Assembly (NCBI GenBank): GCA_030141605.1 | Contig: JAQGDQ010000006.1 | Location: 1,240,001 to 1,304,000 of the forward strand | Length of the DNA stretch: 64,000 bases | From: Tubiluchus corallicola | Taxonomy: Eukaryota > Animalia > Priapulida | Reading direction: 5' to 3' | Shown here: one piece after another, positions 10,188 to 57,833 of the stretch | How the letters are laid out: the number at the start of each line of letters is the position of its first letter | How positions within the stretch are numbered: the stretch's first letter is position 1 | Notes under the pieces: model-generated | Told to the model about the DNA's origin: nothing | Seen by the model: the letters and a program-made list of their open reading frames with translations, nothing else | Databases searched by the model: none | Made by a program: the position numbers and the translations under genes

Positions 10188-10628
10188 TTAAGTTAATGTA
10201 ACTTCATGCAGATCTGTAATTTAACATATTCTCGTAAAATTTTCTTATTTCGCATTTGCTTAAATATTAAGCAAAAAATCAGAGAGTTACTCCGCAAAAA
10301 TTATTTTTGACACACGTAAATTTCGACTAAATTGCAACTATAACGCTGCAGCTTCGCATTACTGCCTGCTGGCGCAAAGCCGGCAAACTTGAAAAACATC
10401 TGTTAAGCTATTTGAAGCAGCTTTTCATTCTAGCCTGCAGAGTGCAGACATGATGATTAATGATAATAATAATAAATAGTAGTAGTAAGAATAAGAGTAA
10501 TAGTAATCGAAATAATAATAATAATAGCAATAACAATTACAGCAACGACTACACAGGTCAAAGATTGCCTAGTTTGAGTACTTCACATTTTGCTTCAGTG
10601 GTAGACTATTATTGCTATTATTATTATT

Positions 10629-10713
10629 CTCTAACGTAACCTAGCCACTGGGGGCGGCAAGCTAGCCCAACTCAGTGCCGGTCCCAAGCCCAGATAAATA
10701 GGGAGGGTTAGGG
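10629..10713 (+). ncRNA. Twister ribozyme (P1-type, with a P3 hairpin) at the 5' end of the RTE element
   Basis: Layout U|AA-CCUA(P2)-GCC-[P3 ACUGGG...CUCAGU]-GCCGGUCCCAAGCCCAGAUAAA-UAGG(P2')-GAGGG matches the twister core as recalled (GCCGGUCCCAAGCCCGGAUAAA...GAGGG), with one P4 mismatch (A10692). No covariance-model search was run. Confidence 0.88.
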
Positions 10714-13700
10714 TCAGGAAGGGCATCCGCCTGTAAAAACTGAGCCAAAACCTTTTTATGAATGAGTCAAAATCGGAGAAGTGAATCTAAGGACGCCACC
10801 TGTAAGTAGCCCACAGATACATCGCCCTAACTCTGTGGACAAGCAAGGGCTACCGTATCAAGAACGGATGCGGCCAAAGAAGTTAGTTCAAAAACTGAGG
10901 ATTGGAACCCTTAATGTGGGAACATTGAATGGAAGAGGTCGAGCTTTGGCACAGCTAATGAAAGAAAGAAAAGTGGATGCGTTATGCGTTCAGGAAACGA
11001 GATGGACAGGAAACAAGGCCAAAGAACTAGGTGATGGTTTTAAGCTGATCTATGGAGGTGCAAACAAGCAAAAGAGAAACGGCATAGGAATTATCCTATC
11101 TCCAACCTTGAAAGACTTGGTTATAGAAGTAAATAGGAAAATGATCGTATATTGTGGATACGTCTGGCCATTGAGGAGTGTGGACTGTGCATATTTAGAG
11201 TGTACGCACCACAAACAGGATGCTCAGAGGAGGAAAAGGAACAATTCTGGTTGGACCTACAGGAAGAATGGGAAAAAGTAGATGTGAGTGATAGGTACAT
11301 AGTTGGAGGTGACATGAACGGACATGTAGGAAGTGGAAATAACGCAATAAGACGGATTCATGGTGGAAATTCATATGGAGATGGAAATGAAGATGGAAAC
11401 AAAATAATCGACGTGGCATTAGCCTTTGACTTGGTGATAGGAAATACCATATTTTGCAAGAAAAATGAACACCTAATAACCTACCGTAGTGGGGATAGGG
11501 AAAGCCAAATAGACTTCCTACTCTACCGACGGAGAGACATCAAAGAGATAAGAAATTGCAAGGTTATATCAGGAGACCACGTAGCAGCACAACACCGCCT
11601 GATGGTTATGGATCTCACCATAGCTGTTACACGTAGGCAGAAAAGGAAAGTCATGACGGAGAAAAGGATTAAATGGTTCAAACTAAAAGAGCAGAGACTT
11701 AAACAGCTCTTTAAAGACAGATTGCTCAGAGAGGTGGACTACGAAATGGAAGAAATAAACGAATGGTAGAACAGGCTGAGTGAAAATATTATAAGGACTG
11801 GAAAAGAAATTCTCGGGGAAAGTAGCTGTGGAATATGAGAGAACAGAGAAACATGGTGGTTTGGAGAAGAGGTGCAGCGGAAAGTAAAAGAGAAGAAAAT
11901 GGCAAAGAAAAGATGGGAAGAAACCAAGTTGGACAGGGACAGAGAGTATTACAAACAGTGTTGCAAGGAGACGAAAAGAACTGTAGCTGTAGCAAAAGCG
12001 GAGGCGTATGACAACCTATATGAAGAGTTGGACACCAAGAAAGGACAGGGGAGAGTTTTCAAGTTGGCGAAGCTGAGAAACAAGAGTACAAAGGACATTA
12101 GGCATATAAGGTAGATCAAAGATGAAAGGGGGCAAGTAATACGAAAAGAAAGCGATGTCCTGAGGAGGTGGAAGGAATACTACGAGAAGCTGCTGAACGA
12201 GGAAAATGAAAGACTGGTTAGGGGACCGAATGAACTGGAGGTAACAGGGGTGACAAGACAGGAGGTGGAATTAGCATTAAAGAAAATGAAAAATGGCAAA
12301 TCTACGGGACCTGACGGAATACCGGTGGAAGTTTGGAAAGCCTTAGGAGAAGAAGGGATTGACATACTGCATCAACTGATGAGAGAAATAGTGGAGAGAG
12401 AGGTAATCCCAGAAAAATGGAGGGAAAGTACTCTGGTACCGATTTTTAAGGAGAAGGGAGACATCCAGGACTGCGGAAATTATCGGGGGATTAAGCTGAT
12501 GTCCCACACCCTGAAACTGTTCGAAAGGATTCTGGATAATAGATTGAGACAGGTGGTACACATAGGACAGCAACAGTTGGGATTCATGACGGGACTTGGA
12601 ACGGTTGACGTTATATTCACACTTCGCCAGAATATAGAGAAACACTAGGAAAAGCAAAGGGCACTACATATAGCTTTCATAGATCTAGAGAAAGCATATG
12701 ATAGGGTACCACGGCAAGAAGTGTGGAGAGGTCTGATGGAGAGAGGAGTGCCAGAAAAATATGTAAGAATAGTCCAAGAATGCTACAAGAACGTGACAAC
12801 TAAAGTCCGGAGTACAGTTGGCATAACAGAAAGTTTCCAAGTAAAAGTCGGCTTACATCAAGGATCGGCACTAAGCCCCCTACTGTTCAACATAGTGTTT
12901 GATGTCATCACAGAGAGTGTAAGGGGAAATCCACCATGGTGTGTTTTGTATGCGGATGACATCGCTATAGTGGCTGAGAGTAGAGAACACTGGAAGGAAA
13001 ATTAGAAGCATGGAGAGCAGAGGAATGAGGATTAGTAGATCCAAAACAGAGAATCTTACGACAGACATGAATGGGGATCAACGAGAAACAATAAGATTGA
13101 ACGAGTTGAAAAGAGTAAAGACCTTTAAGTATCTGGGTTCAATGATAGACGAGACTGCAGGAATGGAAAAGGAGGTGAATTTCAGGATTCAGTGTGGTTG
13201 GAATAGCTGGCGAAAAGTTTCGGTGTGATATGCGATAAGAGGATTCCAGCAAGACTTAAAGGTAGGTAAAATTCACAAAGCAGTGGTCAGACCCGCCCTA
13301 ATATATGGGCTGGAAGCAGCACCTCTAAAGAAGACCGAAGAGAAGAAAATGGATGTGGCGGAGATGAGGATGTTGAGATGGATAGTGGGAGTAACAAGAA
13401 GGGATAAAATCAGGAATAGTAATATTAGAGGAACAGTGAAAGTAGTGGAAGCCTCGAAAAAGATACAAGAGGCAAGATTGCGATGGTATGGGCACCTGAG
13501 AAGGAGAGTCGGGGAAGATCACGTGGGAAGGGAGGCCATGGAGATAAAAGTGCTGGGAAATAGAAAAAGAGGACGACCCAAGCTGAGATGGTTTGAATGC
13601 ATAAACGGAGACCTTAGAGAGAAGAACATAAATGAAGAGATGGTTAACAACAGAAATGCATGGAGAAAACTTATTCACAACGGCGACTCCGCATAGGGAA

Positions 13701-13726
13701 AAGCTGGGAAGAAGAAGAAGAAGAAG
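10638..13726 (+). mobile_element. Full-length (3.09 kb) RTE-clade non-LTR retrotransposon, decayed
   Basis: 15-bp TSD ATTATTCTCTAACGT at 10623-10637 and 13727-13741, (GAA)n 3' tail, very short 3' UTR, and a single APE+RT coding region. Confidence 0.95.
10781..13696 (+). pseudogene. Disrupted APE endonuclease / reverse transcriptase ORF of the RTE element
   Basis: APE motifs GTLNVGTL, CVQETRW, VGGDMNGHVG and SQIDFLL. RT motifs GPDGIP, NYRGIKL, DLEKAYD, GLHQGSALSP, LYADD, KYLGS and RLRWYGH. Broken by frameshifts (~11145, ~13005, ~13270) and in-frame stops (11767, 11836, 12112, 12646, 13226). Confidence 0.93.
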
Positions 13727-14386
13727 ATTATTCTCTAACGTGTACCTATTACCTAATTTTTGCTTTTAAGCTAAGTCATCACCAGTATTGTCATCACTAT
13801 TATGTTTCATAGGATATGAATTAATTCATGTTGACATGCGTCATTAGGAGTGCATGAACATAACTAACCTCAACTAACACAGCATTAATGATAGTGCACT
13901 GATTTTATACACTGAAAGAAGTTACAAAACAGAAATTTAAATTTGTTAAAGTAGTAAAAAATTTAACAAAATTTCATCGAGCTAGGTAACGTGTTTTGAA
14001 TTTCGTGAGTCCAGTTTTCTTCTACATGTAGCAAAGCACACGTAGAAAATGACACAACTGTTGTCCCTATGTGGGAGGCTGCATATGCTACTGACATCAA
14101 TCATGGCCACATCATTATAGCAGGCTGGGGCGGGGGCTTAGTCGGCAAGATCAGTTAGATTTACTTCGGTGCCGATTACCTAAAAATAGGATTTTAGGTA
14201 ATGACCTCTCACCCTTTCCAGTAATAATTAATACACTTAGTACTAATCGGTTTTCTAGAGAAGATACGGTGGTAACTGGATCGAAATCAGTGATCGGAAC
14301 CACACTGCTGTTTGAATTATTTATCTATGACTGTACACTGTAGATGTTTGTAAAAAAAGATTTCCATATAGCTCTGAAGTGGTGCC

Positions 14387-15351
14387 TGTTGGGAGCCGTT
14401 TGGACCACTGCGCCAAGTAGACCAATTGGTCTACTTGGGCTAGCCCAAGTAGACCGCGGTCTACATGGGCTAGCCCAGGTCTACATGGGCTAGCCCAAGT
14501 AGGACACTAGAGACAGGTCGTGAATTCAGTCGTTAAGTGTACTGACACCGTCCGTTGTGCTTCTTTATGTAATAATAATAATTAAAAACGTTAATACACG
14601 TTGAATAATTTATTATACATCTAATAAAATAAAAGAATTTTATTCTGAGCTGGTAGAACGGACAATATTAAATTTGGTTTCGATATTAATGTTGTTGAAG
14701 TGAAAAAACCCCACTTTTTTGCGAATTCAACATTTGTTTAAGGTATATCTTTTTTGATTTTGTCTCACTTCACAAACAGGTGATCCGTTTCACTACCTCT
14801 TGGGCAAATAATTGTTTTCTTATAAGTAAACGTTCTAGCGATCTATGTGTCCTACATGGGCTAGCGAGCCATGTAGGACAGTGCCCTACATGTTACAATA
14901 CTACTGATAATATTAAAACTAATTATCCTTGCTTTTCTTAAATGTTAAAAATTACTTTATGGTGTTGTAAAGGCTTAGCAGCATCTGTCTCATTTTTAAA
15001 TTTGCAATTATTTCTGTAATAACTGTGTGCAGAATTTCTCTCTTTAAAGCATTAGATACTAGGTTTAATGTTATGATATATTAATGGAGTTAATCATAAT
15101 GATGAAATTATTGTAAGAAATGCATTTGTAAATTGCCAAGGAATATCCATTTCTAAAAGAAATTTTGTTTTATGCTTTATTATGTCATAACAATACTTAT
15201 AAACAATGGTAATATAAACTGGAAACAAGTTTTGCCAGAGCAAGTTTCTGGACAAAAATCGCTAGTGTCCTACTTGGGCTGCCCATGTAGGACACTACTT
15301 TTAGCGCATCAAGTGGTCTACTTGGCGCAGTGGTCCAAACGGCTCCCAACA
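14387..15351. mobile_element. Non-autonomous DNA transposon with TGT...ACA ends and a 5-bp TSD (Ginger-like assignment tentative)
   Basis: Perfect 38-bp TIR TGTTGGGAGCCGTTTGGACCACTGCGCCAAGTAGACCA; TSD GTGCC at 14382-14386 and 15352-15356; subterminal palindromic repeats; no ORF. Confidence 0.88.
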
Positions 15352-16523
15352 GTGCCGACTGCTGACGAAGCAACAGGCATAGTATAGGCTAGTTTTTTGC
15401 GGGGTTACTGCTTTTTACCTGTCTTGAGAGGCACATTTCGTTTATTTTACAATGCTATCTGCCCAATGTTTACAGTAGGCGTAACGGGCATATGATGTTA
15501 ATGGCATCTTGTATAGCACACGATTGATGCATGTTATATGATATGAATTATGATTTATAGCAGTTTTGAACGGAAGTGGTGCTGGCATTTAAGCCAATGG
15601 TATAGCAGTGTCTAGCTTTCGGCTGGATTATTGCTGTATCTCTCAGTTAACTCTCTGTTAAAAGCAAACTCTCAGTTAATTTTGATGCTTATATTTAACT
15701 AGTCAATGCGTACCCCATTAATTAATACTAGTCATATTTATACTTTATAGTAATTACTAGTATTTAGCAGTTAATATAAAGCTGCAATCTATAGCGATCA
15801 ATTATAGTGCCTATTTTACTACTAGCAAATATCATTGGGCAGCGAAAATCTCCATCAGTTTGATTATAATTGTACTTGTCGATCTGTATAATTATCATAA
15901 AATTAATAGCTAGTGTAACTAAGTAGCAGTATGTCATTTTTTTTTACATGTATAATAATATCTGTAGTTCTACCTGTATATAATTTTCGTTTCGTACTTG
16001 TCAATATATGTAATGTTAATTGCGTGTTTGCACAATAAATTGAATTAAGTTGAATTGTATTCACCTGCCTTGTGGACAGATTTGTTTTGCTTTAGAATTA
16101 GATTATAGTCCATATTCAATACATATTACCGTACATTTAACATTGATCTCTACAGAATGTTTGAAAATCTTTAGAATTCTGTTTGTCACATGGCTGCAGA
16201 ATATATAATGTAAATCTAATGAGCATAATTGATATGGAGATCTCGCCATTTTTGAGAGATTGGTGGTAAATGCCCATTTCTGGACAGTGTCCATAATAAT
16301 TATTGCATTTTGTGTAATACATTTGCTGCTGCTTTTATTATAATTTTATGTGTAGGTCTGGCAACTTGTGCTTCTGGGAATTGGAAGACTCACAACAAGA
16401 CCAGACAGATTTAAACTTTCACACTAAAAAAAGAATTTTTCTAGTTTAGAGTTATTGTAAATTAGAATTACTGCTTGTGGAGTGGAAATACTGCCACACA
16501 TTTTGTGGAGATCTTTTTGAAGT

Positions 16524-19500
16524 ATGGCTGCAGCTGAGTGGGAAGAAGTAAAGCGTTTAGCAGCTGATTTCCAGAAAGCCCAGTTACAAGGAACTGTACA
16601 ACGGTACTACTTGTTTTAAGTCTAACAATATTTTCTGTTTGAAATAGTTGTTTTGCAGTCATGAATACTAAAATGTATATGCTGCTCCTATTATTGACGC
16701 TTTAAAAAATTTAAAGTTTTATAACATCCATATTTTCTGTAGTACACACACACGCACAACAGGTTAGTGTATTTTTTGCATCTCTTCAATACTTTATCCA
16801 TCGGCATTATTTTTTACTGAGCAAGATAGCTAAATGTATTTTTCAGTCATGGCGCCGGCTAGTAGCTATTGTAAACATCAGGTACAGCTAGATCCATAGG
16901 CTACATGTAGTTAGAATATTATATTCTTTTGGTTATATGTCCCAGGTAGCTAATGTGCCTAAAGTCATAGGGCCTAGTGTATTTTAGGTGCAATTCTGCA
17001 GATTAAAGTATTTAAAGTTGGGAATTCAAGTAAAGATTACGATATAATAATGGTTCGTGTTGCGGAAAGTTCTTTGTTTTTAGTCAAGTATCATAGCACA
17101 TTCAAGAAGAGTATAATTTTTTTAATTTAGGCAGTCAGGGTATGGGTTTAATCCTGCACCGTTGTCTGAATTGTGTAATCTCTCTCATTTCATTCTCTAC
17201 CCCTATAAGCTCTGACTGTGTGATTTAAGGCAAGTTGCATCGTTCCTACTTAATAGGCTTTTATTACAACATTTATTGAAAATGAAGTAACTTAATTGTT
17301 TTGCTGCTGTGTGTTACTTAACTTACGATTTGCGATTATCTTTAAGCTCTTAAAAGTATGCAATTAGTAATAGGTATATAGATAGGCTCTTCTCTTTTCC
17401 GTGAAACTTGATATCTACATTTAATGATTGTACCATAAGGACCGAAAGATCATTTTGTTGTAGTCAGGCAGGACTCACAATAATTTCTGTTATTTACTCT
17501 TCCACTTTAGCATTTTAATTTTAATCATTATTGATTTGCAGCTTATCAGATCGGAACTGTGTAGAGATAGTGAACAAGTTGGTAGAATGGAACTTGCTTG
17601 ATGTCATTTATACCGCAGATGGTAAGGAATATCTGACTCCTGCTGAACTGCTGAGAGAAATTAAAGATGAGCTCATTGTGCATGGTGGTAGAGTGAATCT
17701 TGCCGACTTAACTCAGATTCTCAATGTTGACTATTCACATATTGAAGCTAAAGTTGCTGAACTGCTGAGGATCGATCCTACATTGGAACTTATTCTTGGA
17801 CAGCTGATTAGTAGGTTCGTATAAATGATATTGTATGAAGCAGTGCTTTCTAGATAAAAGAAAGAATTGTTAGTTTACTTCTGAGCAGTTTTACATCAGT
17901 TTTTTACATGTAACAGCACATTCATTGAAAGGTATACTAAAAGTAACTGCCAATTGGTATTGTAAATTGCTAATCAGAACCACTGTGCAGTTCTTTTTTT
18001 TAATGAGGATAGCTTTTGTTTTCACTTAGCACAAATGGTTGTTGGATAAAAGCTAAGTGACTCACGCGAGCTGACGAAGGGTTAATCAAATTTGAAAAAT
18101 TACAAAATTTGTCAGCAATGCAACCACTAAGGTGTACATTTTTTTAGAAATTATGTAGACGGGATTGCTGAAGAGATTGATGATAAACTACAAGACACTG
18201 GTCAAATTTCAATTGCTGACTTAACCAAGCATTATGATCTTCCTGGTGATTTTCTGATGGACAATGTCAACAAACGTTTAGGTGTCAGCATTAAAGGCAA
18301 AGCTGATGAGTTTGATCCACGCGTCATTTACACTGAAGCATTTTTATCACGTCATCGTGTCTGCATTAGAGGTGTGCTCAATGCCTGCACTAGACCAACT
18401 CCTGTGCCAGCCGTGATTAAAGCATATGGTTTCAACGAGAGACTTTTCTTCTCGCTATCAGAAGATATGTGTAAGTCAGGTGAACTTGCAGGTAATTTGA
18501 CTGGTGGACACTCTGAGAGGGCTTTGTACATGCCAGACGTGTATGCTAAAGCTCAAAATCGATACGTAGAACATTTCTATAAGCAAAATGGCTATCTGGA
18601 ATATGACACTTTGATCAGGATTGGAATAACCGAGCCCAAGCTATACATAAAGAAGTGTTTGAAGAATGAATCATTGGTGTTTCTTAGTTCTTGTTGTTGT
18701 GGCACGTCACTTCAAGAACAGTTGGAAGCATCTGTTGAAGAGGCACTGTCCTCACAGGCCTGGATTGATGCGATGCATGTTCTGCCATCAGTCTTTACTG
18801 TACAAGATACAAGACAGCTTTTAGAGAAATGTCTAAAGAAACTGAAAGAACACAATGTGCTAATATGCAGTGACAGCATCGTAGTAAGTGAGAAATTTAT
18901 CCAGACCTGCAGCAAATATTTTGAAGATCTTATAACCAAAAAAGCTGAGAGCGAGGCTAGGAAACTACCTTTAATTCTGTCAGAGGAGGGCATAGCAAAT
19001 ACAGAAACATTTGAAAAGCCAAAGACGATCTCGCTTGATAGCTCACAAGGAGGACGGCAAGCAAAGAAGGAAGAGAGGAGACAAAAAGCAGCAGGAAGTG
19101 CTGCTAAAGGAGGTGGTGCTCAGGGCAGAGAAACAAAGACAAAATCTTTGAAAAAGAAAAGTGCTAGAGGTAGGGGTGATAATAAAGATGACTCTGGTGA
19201 TGAAACAACCATTAAAAAGACAAGTTATAAAGCGAGCGAGTTTATGCCACTTGATGAAATAGAAAATGTCCTTTCTAATCAACTCCAGGAAGAAGACTGT
19301 CCTGATGAAATGATAGCTGCAATAGCTGAACAGCTACATACATCATTAGAGAGTCGTTTTCAAGAGACGTTGAAGTCTGTATTCATGGCTTCTGCTTCCC
19401 AAGTATCACAGTCAAGGAGAAAAACTCGTGAAGAACTTGTTGATAAAATTAATGGGCTAACAAGTAACATTAAATTATTTGAAAAAGGAATTAGCAAGTT

Positions 19501-20879
19501 TGGAGATGATGCTCAGCAACAGCAGCTTACAAAGCATTTGATAAAAACCATCTGTAACGACATAGTTAATCTGTTAGTAATATTTTTATCTCTGGATGCG
19601 GGTAAAATTGTGGAGGCAGACAAACCACTTACTGCTGAAAACCGCACAGCCCTAGTTGCATCATTACCAACTGAGTCAAAAACACTGGCTAAAGAACTCA
19701 TTAATTCTTTGACTGAAAAGACAACAGAGAATTTTCATAAGTGTTTGGATGCCATGTTGGAAGAATGCCAGTTGCCTGCCAGGAAAATGGATAGAAAAAA
19801 AGAAAGGTAGTTGGCTGGTATATTTTTAGCTTTTGCCTATACATGCATTTGATAAATTTTGTTTTAGAATTTAAGTAAGAAGTGGAAGTTATCCATATTT
19901 AATGAATATTAAAAACATTAAGTTTTTGTCCGAAGGTTGTTTTGTCTTAATTGCTTTACTTTATATGCGACACTCTTAAAAATGTTAAAGACTATTGTAG
20001 GCAGCTCTTCAACTCACTGTAAAAAATACATGAATGTTAAAACACTGGTCTATGTCTATAAATCTGTCATCTTGGTGAAAACTGCTTGCTTTAAAATTCA
20101 AAAACACTGCAGTTGCGACTTCATAATAATATTTTCACAAGCATTGAGTGTTGTCAGTAATAGTTGTATTATTATTTTAGAGAGAGAGATTTCTTTTTTA
20201 GTTTATTTATTATATTTAAACCGAGTTTTAAAAATTATGGGAAATGCGTGTTTTGTTAGCTTAAGTGTTTCCCGAATCTTTCCAGAAAAAATCTTAGCGT
20301 GTTACCACATTACACTACATTATTTATGCACTTAGTGCTTTATGTGAAACATGGCAGTACCGAAATGACTGTTTCATAAAAAGAAATGTAATTCATTCCG
20401 ATTGTTGGTTTTAGTTATTGCACATACCTTTACTCGTATTTTGTAGTTTGCAAGAGCTTAAATTATTGTTTTTCTTTCAATGATTTTAATAATTTAAATG
20501 TACATCTGTGTTTTATAGACAGCATGTGTTTTCTCACCGTATGGCGCTGATGGAACAACTTCGTGATGAATCCGATCCAGCCATGGTGCTGCACCTAACT
20601 GTTGTGTTGCTGTTTCTCAATTATACTCAGTGCGTACTGAATGCATCTGGTAAGTTCGTACCAATGGTAATTGCTTATCTGAAGAACTACCTTTCTAAAG
20701 AACAGCACGATGATCTGGTCATGTGTCAGGAATTGGTTGTGAAGCAGCTAAATGTGGAAAGAAATGAAGAAAATGACAATGATGAGGTTTTAGCACAGTT
20801 GAATGTTTTATTGCCAAGGATTAAGGAAATGGCATTAAATGTGAAAAAAGAAAATTCGCAGCGTGAAAGTGAACAGTAA
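16524..20879 (+). CDS. UFL1: E3 UFM1-protein ligase 1, 790 aa
   Basis: Exons 16524-16603 ([21 protein letters not shown]), 17542-17814 ([10 protein letters not shown]...DGKEYLTP), 18148-19806 (includes [12 protein letters not shown]) and 20519-20879. Total 2373 nt, phases consistent. Confidence 0.95.
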
Positions 20880-50423: not shown

Positions 50424-52760
50424 TAACTTATCTAACTTAATGGTAAAATATTTACTTACTTGGATGTATTTTATTCTTTAGCCGTTAGAACATTAATGTT
50501 GAGTAACTCTCAAGACAAGTACAACTAACATGTAGTTTAGTGATACGATGGACTATTGTGTGGTTTTCAGTACCACTTTGATATGAGTGCAAATCTAGGA
50601 AAACTGTGTAAACCCTTGGATATTTCAGGCATGCCATAAAACCAATAAGCATGCAAATGATATAGAGCTGAGTGCCTACTTGTCTGTCCTTTACTTGCAT
50701 GCCAAAATGTGTAGCTTCCATGTTACAACATTTGTAGTTGTAGCTTCCACGCAAATATCCATTGTACTTCCTTTGTGCATCCTCACTTGTTTCTAAGCTT
50801 GGAAACCAATTATTTTACAATGTCAACTATATTACTCAGAAGACGAAAACTATCAGACTGACAGGTTAAATGTTATTTTAATTAACATTAACATAATCAG
50901 ATTAAAATGACACATTCCACTGTGTACTTGACAGACCGACTGCTGACTGTGAGGTGGTTCGGTGACTGTTGTTTTTAGATTATGGCATCCAAGCGCCATC
51001 TGTATTAAACAATGTTAGCTAATAGAACACCAATGACTCGTCACTTTGTACTATCACAGGTTGTCCACACCATCTTGAAGGGAATGCAAAATAAACAGTT
51101 GAGCAGATGTCCTATAAGTACCGATATCAGTGTGCCACATTACCTTTGGGGTAATCTGAATAAGCGAAACAGCTGCATAATGCCCACTCCCAATAACTCT
51201 CCAAACAAATTCATGAGAATGTACTGTTATTCTGAAGTCACAAATTCAATCTTAATAAGTCTGTTGTAAAGCAACAAAGCGACAGCTGACCATCTTCAGC
51301 ATAAGAAAATATCGTTGCAAATTATATTTCAAAACACACTTGATAACATGTTAATTAACTATTGTGTTTTTTGTCTTCTCTAAAATAATGAACTGTGAAA
51401 ATTTCTCTTAAAAATTGGACCAAATCATTCATGATTGATGCATGGTCACATTGGTTATTTTTTGCACTCCATTCAGTTTATATTGACTGCAGATTTGCCA
51501 TTTTCAGGTGAGATGGAGATGGTCTAATTTATAAATTTACTAAAACAAATTTTTAACTTTTTTCCTTGTATGTGAAAATATGAGGCATTAGGTGACCAGT
51601 TGGCAGCAGCAACATACGTTGGTGCCAAAATTAGTCAAATAGTTATGTGACAGGCAACTTTTAACTCATACTATACCTATCTATTCTTTATTCTCTTAAT
51701 CGCGGATTGGTTCTTTCAAAATAGAAGCTTTGGTTTTAGAAAAGCTTCCTTCACAATACAAGAGTCTGAATGAAGGTTTTGCTAAGTTTCCTTTAAAGTT
51801 TTTGAATTTGAATTTTTGATTTAAACTATTGGATTTGTAAAGGAACTTTTACGTTAGTTTGTAACCAAAACCAAATCAAATCATCCCTGAAACTGAGATA
51901 GGACACCGATGGTAACCATTCTAGCTTTTTTTATGGTTAAGATCAGTGTGTCCAACTCATGTTGCCTTTTGATGTTCTAAGTACTTAGTACTGGTATTAG
52001 TACTTAAATTAAAACAAATCTGAAGTATTGTTTGTTTAATTAAACTTCATTAAAATTGTATGCAACTTGTTGTGGCAGTTTGCAGTTGGTTGTGTAACTT
52101 TACGGTTATACATAATAGGATTGCAGCCTTTATGTAAAATAAATATTAATTAATCTAATTTATTGTCTATCATTGTAAAGTAGCTAATGAGGTGTGGCGG
52201 TAAACTGCAGTTTACAAGCATGAAATTATTGTGACAGTGACAGCAGCTTTTTCTGTTTAGGAGTGGCGTGCAGTTCATATATGCAAGGTCCAAATTTTCC
52301 AAAAAAAATTCCGAGCTTTATTTTCCAAACAATAATTATGATGTATAAAGCTGTTTCTAATAATTCAACTGCTGGGGCAAATATCTGCTAACATTTTATG
52401 CTCATATATTGTATTACAAGAGCGGCAGGCCATACATTTCGTGAAATCATCAAATTATTGCTAAACAGTGCAGCTGTACATGTTACTGGTTAAATAATAT
52501 GAGGAATGAAAGTGTAATTTGTTGTATTTAAATAGATCTATAATAACAAAATTAATCCTATTCAATTACACTTTTATGAATGATATGTAATTTGTATATA
52601 TACTTTAACTATCGTAGAAATTTTAAGAAATGTGTACTACTGCCACTTCATATATATTGTCTAAAGATTTTGAAGTGCAGAAAATATCCATTTTGCATCA
52701 TAACAGTTACAACTTCTTGCACTTTCAATTTTTGCAGAGTGAAAGACTTCAACGTTAACT

Positions 52761-54284
52761 ATGTTTACAGTGAAACGACTTGCACACTTTGGAAAGTATT
52801 TGACTGGAGCATCTGTTTTCAGTTATGGTTTATACATTGGACATAAACATGATTGGGATTTTCGTAATGTAGGTTTAATACGATTTGGTCGAACTGTTTT
52901 TGCTGCTGGTGTTATAGTAGCAGATTATAAAATTACATTGTACGGCTTGGATCCCAGTTCTTCGCAATATGCACAAAAGCAGTCACTTGTGCATCGGAGA
53001 TCGGCTGAAAGACTCAGAGCTGTTGCTTGTGTAAACGGAGGTGTGTTTATAAAGGTTGGCCAACACTTGGGAGCACTTGAATATCTTTTACCACCAGAAT
53101 ACTTTCAGACATTTCAAGTTCTTCACAATGAAGCACCTCAGTCATCTTTGCCTGATGTTAAAAGAGTTATAAGAGAGGACTTGGGTAAAAGCTGTGAAGA
53201 AATATTTTCGGATTTTGATTCAGAACCTATTGGCACTGCTTCGCTTGCCCAGGTTCATAAAGCCTTACTTCTTGATGGTAGTATAGTAGCTGTAAAGGTT
53301 CAACATCCAATGGTTAAAGCTCATTCATTTATTGATATGAAAACTATGGAATACTTAGTTGAAATTGTTGCTCGCATTTTTCCAGAATTTAAATTTAAAT
53401 GGTTAGTTGAGGAAACAAAAAGGAACTTGCCAAAAGAGCTTGATTTTTACAATGAGGGTTTAAATGCGGAGAGAATAAGGCGACTCTTGGCGAAGTTTGA
53501 GTTTTTAAAAGTACCTAAAATATTCTGGGATCAAACATCGCCAAGAGTGCTCACCATGGAGTTCTGTGATGGTGGAAAAGTAACTGATAAACACTATATT
53601 AAAATGTACAAAATTAGTGTAGACGAACTTTCAGAAAATCTAGGGAAACTGTACAGTGAGATGATATTTGTAAAGGGGTATGTGCATAGTGATCCCCATC
53701 CTGGAAACATATTAGTGAAGAAAACTCGTACAGGTATGCAACTTGTTTTGCTAGACCATGGACTTTACGCAACGCTCTCAGACGAGTTCAGAATAAACTA
53801 TTCAAAATTGTGGTTAGCATTGATCAATTCAGATTTGGAAGGGATAAAAGCTTTCTCTAGGAGCATTGGAAGTGGTGATTTGTACCCCTTATTTGCCTGT
53901 ATGGTGACTGGACGCACTTGGGAAACAGTAGAATCGGGAATTGACAAAAAGACAATAAATACTGCCGAAACCACAGAAATTAAACAGATGGCTTCTCAGT
54001 ACTTGGTACAAATAATTGATGTTTTGAATCGAGTTTCTAGAGAAATGATACTTATATTTAAAACAAACGATTTGTTGCGAGGTATAGAGTTCTGTCATGG
54101 AACGTATGCTAATGCAAAGACATTCATCACTATGTCACGCTGTTGTGTTCGTGCTGTGTATTTTGAAGAACTGAGGCAGTGTGGTAACTGGAGATGCAAA
54201 GTACTAGTGACGTTCAGAAAGTATCTAACTTTGCTTAAAATCAATGTGTATGGGTTATACTTGCGTTTTCGCAGTTATGTCTAA
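52761..54284 (+). CDS. ADCK1: aarF domain-containing (UbiB/ABC1) kinase 1, 507 aa, intronless CDS
   Basis: Intact ORF with the UbiB motifs FIKVGQH (KxGQ), ASLAQVH, AVKVQHP, HSDPHPGN and LLDHGLY; splice acceptor TTTTTGCAG ends at 52737. Confidence 0.92.
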   Translation: MFTVKRLAHFGKYLTGASVFSYGLYIGHKHDWDFRNVGLIRFGRTVFAAGVIVADYKITLYGLDPSSSQYAQKQSLVHRRSAERLRAVACVNGGVFIKVGQHLGALEYLLPPEYFQTFQVLHNEAPQSSLPDVKRVIREDLGKSCEEIFSDFDSEPIGTASLAQVHKALLLDGSIVAVKVQHPMVKAHSFIDMKTMEYLVEIVARIFPEFKFKWLVEETKRNLPKELDFYNEGLNAERIRRLLAKFEFLKVPKIFWDQTSPRVLTMEFCDGGKVTDKHYIKMYKISVDELSENLGKLYSEMIFVKGYVHSDPHPGNILVKKTRTGMQLVLLDHGLYATLSDEFRINYSKLWLALINSDLEGIKAFSRSIGSGDLYPLFACMVTGRTWETVESGIDKKTINTAETTEIKQMASQYLVQIIDVLNRVSREMILIFKTNDLLRGIEFCHGTYANAKTFITMSRCCVRAVYFEELRQCGNWRCKVLVTFRKYLTLLKINVYGLYLRFRSYV

Positions 54285-55934: not shown

Positions 55935-56255
55935 GCAGACATTACCTTAATTAGCTTAATTTGAATAGGGTAAGTGGATTCTGTTACTTCCAGAAAAAAT
56001 ATAAGCCAAGTAAAGAGCAAGTTCTTTGTTTTCAAATTTTTATGCACAGATTCAAAGCAGGAAACCAGTCAAGTAACTGATGGTGACTTAGTGTAGAAAG
56101 TTTCCCTTTGCCATAACGCCATTTAGTCAGTTTTTTCGTAACATTAGTCATCTGATTGTATTTTGTTGCTTAATTTGTTGCCTGGATCTGAGATCACTAG
56201 CTGCCTTGTAAAATGTCTTGATATCGTTTTCAGAGCACTTTTGCTTGGCAAGAAA

Positions 56256-57833
56256 ATGTCTGCAAAACATTTGATGTTTTGTACGCTACGTGAAGTTGTA
56301 GAACAGCTGCAATCTGGAAGAGTTGGTGCTAAGGAGGTAGTAAAACATTGCATCCAGAGGACAAAGGAAACATGTCACCTTAATGCGTTTGTCACTGAGC
56401 TACATGATGACTCATTAAAGCAAGCTGACAAAACAGATGAGAGGCTAGCATCAGGTGAAGGACTTAAAACACTCGATGGCATACCCATAGCAGTCAAGGA
56501 TAACTTTTGTGTGAAAAACGTTAAAAGTAGTTGTGCATCTTATATGCTGCACAACTTCTATCCTAGTTACAATGCTACTGTTGTGCAACGCTTGCAAGAT
56601 CATGGCGCATATGTTATTGGTAAGACGAATTTAGACGAGTTTGCCATGGGAGCAGGAACAGTGGACAGTCTCTATGGACCCGTTTATAACCCATGGAGTA
56701 AATGTGCAAGAGTTAAACATAAGATGAGCCATTTAGAAACTTACAACGAATCTATGCTTGATACTTCACAAGATCATTTGTGTGATGATAGTGAGTGGTT
56801 AATTGCTGGTGGAAGTTCTGGTGGGAGTGCTGTTGCAGTTGCAACAGGCTCGTGCTATGCTGCTCTTGGATCAGACACCGGGGGTTCAACAAGAAATCCA
56901 GCTGCATATTGTGGAATAGTTGGGTTCAAACCCACCTATGGTCTTCTATCCAGACATGGATTGATACCGTTAGTTAATTCGCTTGATGTACCTTGCATTC
57001 TAACAAAATGTGTAGAAGATGCCGTAAATATTTTTAATGTGATTGTCGGTCATGATGAGCTTGACTCTACAACTGTGACAGATCCTTTTAAAAGCATTGA
57101 TTTGTCGAAAGACATTAATATAAGCGATCTGCATATTGGAATTCCCAGAGAGTACCATGCACCTGGTGTTTCTGAAGATATCCTAGAAACTTGGCAATGG
57201 GCAGCAGACATTTTTACCAATGCAGGAGCTAAAGTTACGGAAGTTTCGCTGCCTCACACACAGTATTCCATTGCTTGTTATTCCATTCTGTGCTGTTGTG
57301 AGGTTGCATCAAATATGGCTCGTTACAGTGGTGTGCAGTATGGACATAGAAGTGAGATGGGACAGTCTACACACGAGTTATATGCACACACTCGACGTGA
57401 GGGCTTCAATGATGTTGTGAGAGGACGAATTCTAGCTGGAAACTATTTCTTGCTGAAAAAACAATATGATTTATATTTCGTTCAAGCACAGAAAGTTAGA
57501 CGGTTAATATCAAATGATTTTAAACAAGTATTTGATAGTGGCATCAACTTTCTACTGACACCAACAACTCTCACAGATGCACCTGTGTATAACGAATTCA
57601 TCAAATTAGATAACCAGACTAAATCAGCTAGAGATGATGTGTTAACTCAGCCAGTAAACTTGGTAGGACTGCCAGCTATAACACTGCCTGCAAAATTATC
57701 ATCACGTGGTCTCCCGACTGGAGTTCAACTCATTGCAAATAATTTTCAAGATGAAGACCTTTTTTGTTGCAGTAAATGGCTTGAAAGTCAAATGAATTTT
57801 CCTTTCTTTAATCCTTTTAATTCAGTTTGGTAG
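56256..57833 (+). CDS. QRSL1: Glutamyl-tRNA(Gln) amidotransferase subunit A, mitochondrial (GatA), 525 aa, intronless CDS
   Basis: Amidase signature IAVKDNF, GKTNLDEFAMG, GGSSGGSA and LGSDTGGSTR; GatA motifs EVASNMARY and RGRILAGNYFL. The first ATG (56256) follows acceptor TTTTCAG ending at 56233; the ORF track starts at an upstream TTG. Confidence 0.93.
   Translation: MSAKHLMFCTLREVVEQLQSGRVGAKEVVKHCIQRTKETCHLNAFVTELHDDSLKQADKTDERLASGEGLKTLDGIPIAVKDNFCVKNVKSSCASYMLHNFYPSYNATVVQRLQDHGAYVIGKTNLDEFAMGAGTVDSLYGPVYNPWSKCARVKHKMSHLETYNESMLDTSQDHLCDDSEWLIAGGSSGGSAVAVATGSCYAALGSDTGGSTRNPAAYCGIVGFKPTYGLLSRHGLIPLVNSLDVPCILTKCVEDAVNIFNVIVGHDELDSTTVTDPFKSIDLSKDINISDLHIGIPREYHAPGVSEDILETWQWAADIFTNAGAKVTEVSLPHTQYSIACYSILCCCEVASNMARYSGVQYGHRSEMGQSTHELYAHTRREGFNDVVRGRILAGNYFLLKKQYDLYFVQAQKVRRLISNDFKQVFDSGINFLLTPTTLTDAPVYNEFIKLDNQTKSARDDVLTQPVNLVGLPAITLPAKLSSRGLPTGVQLIANNFQDEDLFCCSKWLESQMNFPFFNPFNSVW

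What the first reader, a model, noticed from the sequence alone, without database searches (positions are those of the whole stretch)
10629..10713. Twister ribozyme defines the exact 5' end of a full-length RTE retrotransposon
Seen: the RTE leader reads U|AA CCUA GCC [ACUGGG-hairpin-CUCAGU] GCCGGUCCCAAGCCCAGAUAAA UAGG GAGGG. It has P2 (CCUA/UAGG), a P3 hairpin, and both pseudoknot pairings (GC/GC and CCC/GGG). The predicted U|A scissile bond (10637/10638) is exactly where the 15-bp TSD ends. Established: twister ribozymes cleave at this U|A, and twisters have been linked to an RTE element in Schistosoma (Perere-3). Inference: this family has no promoter of its own, is cut out of host read-through transcripts by the ribozyme, and this copy is a complete reverse transcript of the cleaved RNA.
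Basis: partly seen in the sequence, partly recalled or inferred. Interest (0 to 1): 0.88.

Follow-up and report, generated by a model that had tools for sequence, protein, structure and literature searches.

The report
Twister-headed RTE and its miniature parasite
A dead 3.1-kb jumping gene in an invertebrate begins exactly where a twister-type RNA is predicted to cut itself, an arrangement already published for a blood-fluke element, and public sequencing data show the same front end joined straight to the back end in a 0.6-kb protein-less version that is likely far more abundant.

Summary
Observation confirmed. Rfam twister-P1 matches 10633-10711 (48.9 bits, E 8e-8, below the curated cut-off). 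The 15-bp target-site duplication (TSD) ends at T10637, the predicted scissile position. The element (10638-13726) is a complete but dead RTE-clade LINE. In public contigs other copies also leave their flanks at 10636-10638, in proportions expected if all start at A10638. This architecture is published for Schistosoma Perere-3 (PMC8501958) and noted for RTEs generally (PMC7761336), so it is a new member, not a new principle. Cleavage and lack of a promoter are untested. Contigs from two studies join the head (to ~10768) directly to the tail (from ~13248): a ~0.6-kb non-autonomous, twister-headed derivative. Most 5' junctions seen probably belong to it. I found no paper on twister-headed short RTE derivatives, but this scan reported them before in other DNA.

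The parts
10623..10637 (+). 5' target-site duplication (15 bp); supplies the U before the scissile bond and any P1 5' strand
10638..13726 (+). Complete, inactivated RTE-clade non-LTR retrotransposon (3089 bp)
10633..10711 (+). Twister ribozyme, type P1, Rfam RF03160 match; predicted cut between 10637 and 10638
   Evidence: cut site by Rfam alignment and PMC8501958
10640..10702 (+). P2 (10640-43 with 10699-702) enclosing P3 (10646-52 with 10671-77) and P4 (10678-80 with 10691-93; middle pair C-A mismatch)
10644..10707 (+). Two pseudoknots: 10644-45 with 10688-89, and 10683-85 with 10705-07; invariant in 4 of 4 aligned heads
10629..10713 (+). Possible 6-bp P1 (10629-34 with 10708-13) made with the target site in a 2-nt-shifted register; may be chance
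10708..10761 (+). Rest of the 124-nt 5' UTR, with a block conserved behind twisters of related elements
10762..13696 (+). Single ORF (AP endonuclease + reverse transcriptase + C-terminal domain), broken by 4 in-frame stops and about 5 frameshifts; 75-77% identical to intact 987-aa P0123
10638..10768 (+). Head segment kept in the short non-autonomous derivative (seen in contigs, not in this window)
13248..13726 (+). Tail segment kept in the short non-autonomous derivative (start approximate)
13697..13726 (+). 30-nt 3' UTR ending in six GAA repeats plus G (13708-13726)
13727..13741 (+). 3' target-site duplication

Best explanation
The stretch is the twister-ribozyme head of a complete but dead RTE-clade retrotransposon whose first base is the predicted cleavage product's first base; the family is likely transcribed by read-through from host promoters, likely cut free by the ribozyme, and then copied to that exact end. 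Shown: structure match, TSD abutting A10638, whole ORF, other copies leaving their flanks at the same base, and contigs joining the head directly to the tail. Inferred: (1) a host transcript runs into the element; (2) the twister folds on its own P2-P4 and pseudoknots, needing little or no P1, and cleaves 5' of A10638 whatever base the target supplies; (3) the 5'-OH RNA is translated and copied by target-primed reverse transcription from the GAA tail to A10638; (4) because head and tail are the only cis parts needed, an internal deletion (~10768 to ~13248) produced a ~0.6-kb protein-less derivative that borrows the RTE protein and now greatly outnumbers the two or so full-length copies.
For: Rfam hit. 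TSD ends at 10637. Loose 5' ends of other copies at 10638/10637/10636: 17/9/2 contigs in run X1 against 18.9/7.5/1.6 expected for a fixed start at 10638 with random flanks; 17/11/4 in X2 (same sample); 5/6/not listed in X3 (second study); flank consensus agreement only 0.47-0.55 at 10638 and different between runs. 6 of 19 pairs show two-sided changes over 4 heads, 90.8% of cells paired, 0 of 500 shuffles as high, slid controls 22-55%. Relative L004 has the same head (61.3 bits), GAA tail and APE-RT ORF, with the tail followed by a 21-nt spacer ending at T|AAC. U-shaped depth and joints 10754->13264 (X1) and 10751->13264 (X3), plus 22, 18 and 10 loose-ended contigs behind 10754 agreeing at 0.98, 0.97 and 0.81 and reading into letters that match 13252-13262. 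P1 and P4 flaws are tolerated and any base may precede the cut (PMC11662667, PMC5113685, PMC8501958). A host gene start (EMC4-like, minus strand) lies 451 bp upstream, a possible source of divergent read-through.
Against: No cleavage, transcript or RNA 5' end was observed. The score is below Rfam's gathering cut-off and this copy has a P4 mismatch; A-C mismatches in P4 lowered mean cleavage by 0.14 in PMC11662667. Only 24 of 102 loose-end rows were shown, so starts at other positions are not excluded; 22 contigs in X1 end loosely at 10650 (probably a variable G-run in P3). Contig depth is not copy number. Of 6 metagenome loci (5 distinct), only L004 has the full U|AA and P2; L003, L005 and L006 are altered at the cut site or in P2, L001/L002 miss Rfam at E 0.01, and no TSD of 8 bp or more ending at the cut site was found in any. 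X1 may be the sample the window came from.
Confidence: 0.85

Rival explanations
1. An internal polymerase II promoter sets the start at A10638; the twister is kept mainly to protect the RNA or recruit ribosomes.
For: Promoter activity was not tested. Cleaved twisters supported downstream translation in yeast reporters (PMC8501958), so a non-trimming role exists.
Against: The start coincides to the base with the cleavage site here and in Perere-3. Catalytic core and pseudoknots are invariant. The last consensus letter before 10638 differs between runs (G, C, A), with no consistent extra G of the kind capped templates can leave (that signature is recalled). Crude A-box, B-box and TATA patterns found nothing in 10638-10900 (weak).
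Confidence: 0.07
2. The excess depth on the head comes from many sister RTE families with bodies under 80% alike, or from a tandem array of heads, not from one short internally deleted element.
For: The laying threshold was 80%; minor contigs continue past 10790 and 10849 into other sequence; a second twister-headed family diverges behind 10709. A tandem array of such heads was reported by this scan in another genome (e1-9139648, unchecked).
Against: Depth falls from 3.4e5 to 7.7e3 to 6.7e2 across 10735-10791 and rises stepwise at ~13264; loose ends on both sides agree with each other and spell the same head-tail joint in two studies; no joint from head back to head is listed.
Confidence: 0.06
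3. Target choice is guided by P1: the cleaved ribozyme re-pairs its free P1 3' strand with the target's single-stranded overhang and so fixes the 5' junction.
For: This TSD forms 6 consecutive pairs with 10708-13; L004 has a 4-pair P1 in the model's register.
Against: 2.9% of flank positions do as well, and the register was chosen after the fact. Flank consensus of other copies shows no such motif; T at -1 is 17 of 39 in X1+X3 against 32.5% background, p=0.10. Perere-3 TSDs are heterogeneous (PMC8501958).
Confidence: 0.02

Closest known systems
T-variant twister ribozymes at the 5' end of Perere-3, Schistosoma mansoni (Liu et al. 2021, PMC8501958; read abstract, Results, Discussion)
   Same: Type-P1 twister at the extreme 5' end; TSD directly against the cleavage-site AA; target supplies P1 5' strand; single APE-RT ORF; short-repeat tail; short leader (124 nt here, ~112-147 nt there).
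   Different: Other host (unplaced invertebrate); GAA instead of GTAA tail; about 2 full-length copies here against 113; a dominant short derivative is not described there; no activity data here. Relationship of the two ORFs was not tested.
Truncated twisters at 5' ends of RTE-superfamily elements (remark in PMC7761336, 'in preparation'; read passage)
   Same: Same general claim, made for the whole superfamily.
   Different: No data or short derivatives given in that passage.
R2 SIDEs of Drosophila (PMC3414825; passages) and NARTc/RIME (via PMC5786205)
   Same: Short internally deleted, ORF-less partners that keep the ribozyme head and the 3' end.
   Different: HDV-like ribozymes; R2 SIDEs are site-specific and about as abundant as R2; here a twister, random targets, and a likely excess of tens to thousands of fold.
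Bipartite non-autonomous RTEs (RTE-N, RTESINE, Bov-A; Kojima 2018, PMC5786205; text parts 1-3 of 5)
   Same: 5' end plus 3' end of an RTE; the paper suggests 5' ribozymes may explain why such elements keep the extreme 5' end.
   Different: The word twister does not occur in that paper; the tail here keeps ~450 nt of coding sequence.
OlRTE-a03 (medaka), Plant/Animal RTE subgroup (PMC2887409; passages and supplementary file 2)
   Same: Holds all three RT motifs looked up from this element; ~990-aa single ORF; ORF ends close to the 3' end.
   Different: Catfish homologues of this type are only 44-59% identical by segment; no tree with named references could be built.

Membership tests
Twister ribozyme, type P1 (RF03160) | Covariance-model match over the whole model | tested here: met
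   48.9 bits, E 1.1e-9, model 1-68/68
Twister ribozyme, type P1 (RF03160) | Score at or above Rfam gathering threshold (67.2) | tested here: not met
   48.9 bits; loss lies in target-supplied P1 and one P4 pair, both dispensable per PMC11662667; best relative L004 reaches 61.3
Twister ribozyme, type P1 (RF03160) | P2, P4, two pseudoknots and conserved L1/L4 bases | tested here: met
   All present, one C-A mismatch in P4
Twister ribozyme, type P1 (RF03160) | Covariation in helices | tested here: met
   6 of 19 pairs with two-sided change over 4 heads; small sample; L003 P2 is off by one column in the alignment
Twister ribozyme, type P1 (RF03160) | Self-cleavage at N|AA | not testable with these tools
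   needs in vitro assay
RTE clade non-LTR retrotransposon | Single ~990-aa ORF with AP endonuclease then RT (PMC2887409) | tested here: met
   Pfam PF03372/PF14529 then PF00078; colinear with residues 7-986 of 987-aa P0123
RTE clade non-LTR retrotransposon | Very short 3' UTR of simple repeats, flanking TSD | tested here: met
   30-nt UTR with GAA repeats; 15-bp TSD
RTE clade non-LTR retrotransposon | RT phylogeny within the RTE clade | tested here: inconclusive
   No tree with named references; motif look-up in a published RTE set points to OlRTE-a03 and plant RTEs
Rex3 subgroup of RTE | Rex3-type RT motifs and GATG/GATC tail (PMC6274825) | tested here: not met
   Two of three motifs were not seen in the Rex3 passages shown; tail is GAA only
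SIDE / bipartite non-autonomous LINE | 5' and 3' ends of the partner LINE joined, ORF lost | tested here: met
   Joints and matching loose ends in two studies
SIDE / bipartite non-autonomous LINE | Amplified as a unit: many dispersed copies with own TSDs | tested here: inconclusive
   Depth excess and many different 5' flanks, but no single contig spans a whole short copy and no assembly is held
SIDE / bipartite non-autonomous LINE | Mobilised in trans by the partner's protein | not testable with these tools
   needs a retrotransposition assay

The most novel reading that the evidence does not exclude
Twister-headed, promoterless 'mini-RTEs' are a recurring class of short retroelement: the ribozyme replaces the tRNA-type head of a SINE, lets a ~0.6-kb derivative outnumber its parent by hundreds to thousands, and seeds this animal's genome with that many working self-cleaving sites that cut host read-through and intronic RNA; the parent lineage moves horizontally between aquatic animals and regenerates such derivatives in each host.
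Probability: 0.4. Interest if true: 0.6.

Novelty: new member of a known kind. Interest (0 to 1): 0.38.

Why it matters
It extends the one published case of a twister ribozyme with a biological job (Perere-3) to another animal and another RTE family, with a clean TSD-defined 5' end. The short derivative offers a natural minimal construct (131-nt head plus ~480-nt tail) for testing which cis parts an RTE needs and whether cleavage is required for complete 5' ends. It would also help explain why animal genomes hold so many twisters with no ORF behind them. It is not a new principle.

Tried and rejected
No genome is held, so copies could not be counted or aligned one by one. No second copy of any part of the element in the window. 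No RNA holder listed; this says nothing on expression. Runs X5 and X6 share only a species label and carry a different twister head; not used. MFE z-scores were uninformative. My first recalled label, Rex3/Expander, was rejected after the motif look-up. TSD search in L001-L006 found none ending at the cut site. Host placement by an ADCK1 tree (65 rows: the window plus 64 of 120 listed hits; quick method, no bootstrap) stayed open beyond 'outside the arthropod rows'. Ruminski et al. 2011 is not held and is cited only through PMC5786205. Literature searches for a twister-headed non-autonomous RTE found none; most subscription papers and Repbase entries are not searched, and the supplements of PMC8501958, which I did not open, may list such copies among its 18.6% of twisters with no downstream domain. 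Look-ups of earlier findings by sequence and by place were empty.

Full report
1. Observation. It is under the curated 67.2 bits. P2 (4 pairs), P3 (7 pairs) and both pseudoknots are complete; P4 has C10679 opposite A10692; P1 has one pair in the model's register. The longest exact repeat between the element's ends is 15 bp, 10623-10637 and 13727-13741. The 5' copy ends on the U of the predicted U|A bond, so the inserted DNA begins at A10638.

2. The element. 10638-13726 is 43.5% G+C against 33-37% in the flanks. It has a 124-nt leader, a start codon at 10762, endonuclease then reverse-transcriptase Pfam hits, a stop at 13694-96 and a 30-nt 3' UTR ending in GAA repeats. It is colinear with residues 7-986 of an intact 987-aa protein, P0123, at 75-77% identity, so nothing large is missing. 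It is dead: four in-frame stops and about five frameshifts. It differs from the long contigs of sister copies at 31 of 2056 letters in X1 and 27 of 1479 in X3 (from the pieces listed). The anatomy meets the RTE-clade description in PMC2887409 (passages). Three RT motifs looked up in that paper's supplementary file 2 all occur in medaka OlRTE-a03 and partly in plant RTEs; two were not seen in the Rex3 passages shown. I place it tentatively in the Plant/Animal subgroup, without a tree. The host is an invertebrate animal that I could not place.

3. Do other copies start at the same base? No assembly is held, so I laid contigs of public runs. X1, X2 and X4 are one sample, perhaps the window's own (an X1 contig matches 10548-10667 without a difference); X3 is a second study. 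Contigs that leave the window upstream of the head do so at 10638/10637/10636 in 17/9/2 cases (X1), 17/11/4 (X2) and 5/6/not listed (X3); X4 lists 4 at 10637 only. A fixed start at 10638 with random flanks predicts 18.9/7.5/1.6 for X1. The flanks at 10638 agree at only 0.47-0.55 and differ between runs, so no shared sequence extends upstream. The excess of T at -1 is not significant (17 of 39 in X1+X3, p=0.10). Limits: 24 of 102 loose-end rows were shown, and 22 contigs in X1 end at 10650, next to a variable G-run. At 10692, 97-98% of depth reads G in 4 of 4 runs, so the family majority has a perfect P4.

4. Depth along the element is U-shaped: in X1 5.5e5 on the head bin, 345-950 over 10887-12412, 1.3-6.4e5 over 13285-13720; in X3 4.4e4, 54-540 and 0.7-3.8e5. 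The single-locus flank contig in X1 has depth 187, so near-identical full-length bodies number about two. Ordinary 5' truncation cannot raise the head. Joints link 10754 to 13264 (X1) and 10751 to 13264 (X3); loose ends behind 10754 (22, 18, 10 contigs in X1, X2, X4) and before 13264 (11 in X1) give the same letters, which follow the window to 10768 and resume at about 13248. The implied element is about 610 nt, keeps the start codon and meets a stop three codons later. Summed contig depth is not copy number: the raw head-to-ORF-start ratio is about 2,560 (X1) and 730 (X3); dividing by 31 for overlapping words leaves about 80 and 23. No contig spans a whole short copy. Most 5' junctions in section 3 probably belong to this derivative.

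5. Relatives. A pattern scan of metagenome contigs gave 6 loci, 5 distinct. Four match twister-P1 at 40-61 bits. L004 and L005 are followed by a whole endonuclease-RT ORF; L003 and L006 jump from the head into the middle or end of it; L001/L002 show only a weak endonuclease trace. L004 has the full U|AA, a GAA tail, and 21 letters between a tail and the head's AAC, as a TSD or tandem joint would give. Over window, L004, L003 and L005, 6 of 19 pairs change on both sides and 90.8% of cells pair; 0 of 500 shuffles reach this, slid controls give 22-55% (four sequences, structure taken from the window, relatedness not controlled). Against: L003, L005 and L006 are damaged at the cut site or P2, and none shows a TSD there.

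6. Mechanism. Shown: structure, junction, ORF, shared start, head-tail joint. Inferred: host read-through, cleavage, translation of the uncapped RNA, target-primed copying to A10638, and mobilisation of the short form in trans. Published support: any base may precede the cut and cleaved twisters allow translation (PMC8501958, Results); P1, P2 and P4 flaws are mostly tolerated, A-C in P4 costing 0.14 in mean fraction cleaved (PMC11662667, section 32 part 1; PMC5113685, part 1 of 2). This copy would therefore probably still cleave. It lies 451 bp from the start codon of an oppositely oriented EMC4-like gene, a possible source of read-through. The 6-bp shifted P1 with the TSD is matched by 2.9% of flank positions and I treat it as likely chance.

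7. Comparison and novelty. Liu et al. 2021 describe this architecture and mechanism for Perere-3, with 113 of 113 full-length copies carrying the ribozyme. PMC7761336 states in one passage that truncated twisters are conserved at RTE 5' ends. Short internally deleted partners with HDV-like heads are known for R2 (PMC3414825, passages), and bipartite RTE derivatives are common, with ribozyme heads suggested (PMC5786205, parts 1-3 of 5). PMC6765202 and PMC6274825 were seen as passages only. Seven searches found no paper on a twister-headed short RTE derivative; earlier unchecked notes of this scan report them in other DNA. What this window adds is the full-length parent beside evidence for its derivative.

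8. Verdict. Observation confirmed; interpretation largely right but published and untested at the bench; new member of a known kind; interest 0.38. Most novel open reading: twister-headed promoterless mini-RTEs as a recurring, high-copy class that cuts host RNA (probability 0.4, interest 0.6).

Noticed in passing
window 10762-13696 vs proteins P0123, P0243, P0244: The nearest intact relative (75-77% amino-acid identity) clusters with two mud-crab (Scylla paramamosain) proteins, while the host's ADCK1 is only 51-55% identical to decapod orthologues and falls outside the arthropod rows in a quick tree: a hint of horizontal transfer, or of contamination in one data set.
   Followed up: partly
window 10187 (minus) and 16524 (plus): The element sits between head-to-head host genes, EMC4-like and UFL1-like, 451 bp from the EMC4-like start codon and pointing away from it. 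Later exons have Pfam hits; the first exons were assigned by eye from recalled N-termini.
   Followed up: partly
window 13383-13556: A second joint in both studies (depth 1729 and 1321) suggests a still shorter derivative of about 0.43 kb; further joints at 13336-13665 and 13382-13607.
   Followed up: no
window 10649-10660: The G-run in P3 varies in length among copies (1-7 extra letters), a mutational hot spot in the ribozyme's dispensable arm.
   Followed up: no
window 10675-10709 in runs X1, X5, X6: A second twister-headed family shares the core but continues differently behind 10708-10709.
   Followed up: no
L006:825-1332 and L003 (minus strand): Internally deleted twister-headed RTEs in other organisms: L006's head runs into residue ~750 of the reference ORF, L003's into ~340; single contigs, copy number unknown.
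   Followed up: partly
L005:177-3233 (minus): An open 1019-codon frame of the same RTE type (42.6% to P0123) behind a twister with a damaged cut site and P2.
   Followed up: partly
window 14373-15365: A ~1-kb element with 56-nt inverted arms (88%) and internal palindromic 25-mers, MITE-like.
   Followed up: no
window 18131-19810, 52743-54284, 56148-57833: Host genes UFL1, ADCK1 and a GatA/QRSL1-like amidase (last label recalled) have coding frames of over 500 codons without an intron.
   Followed up: no
window 10638-10646 and 10706-10712: After cleavage the new 5' end can pair with 10706-10712 in the predicted minimum-energy fold, a possible switch out of the ribozyme fold that would tuck the 5' end away.
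   Followed up: no
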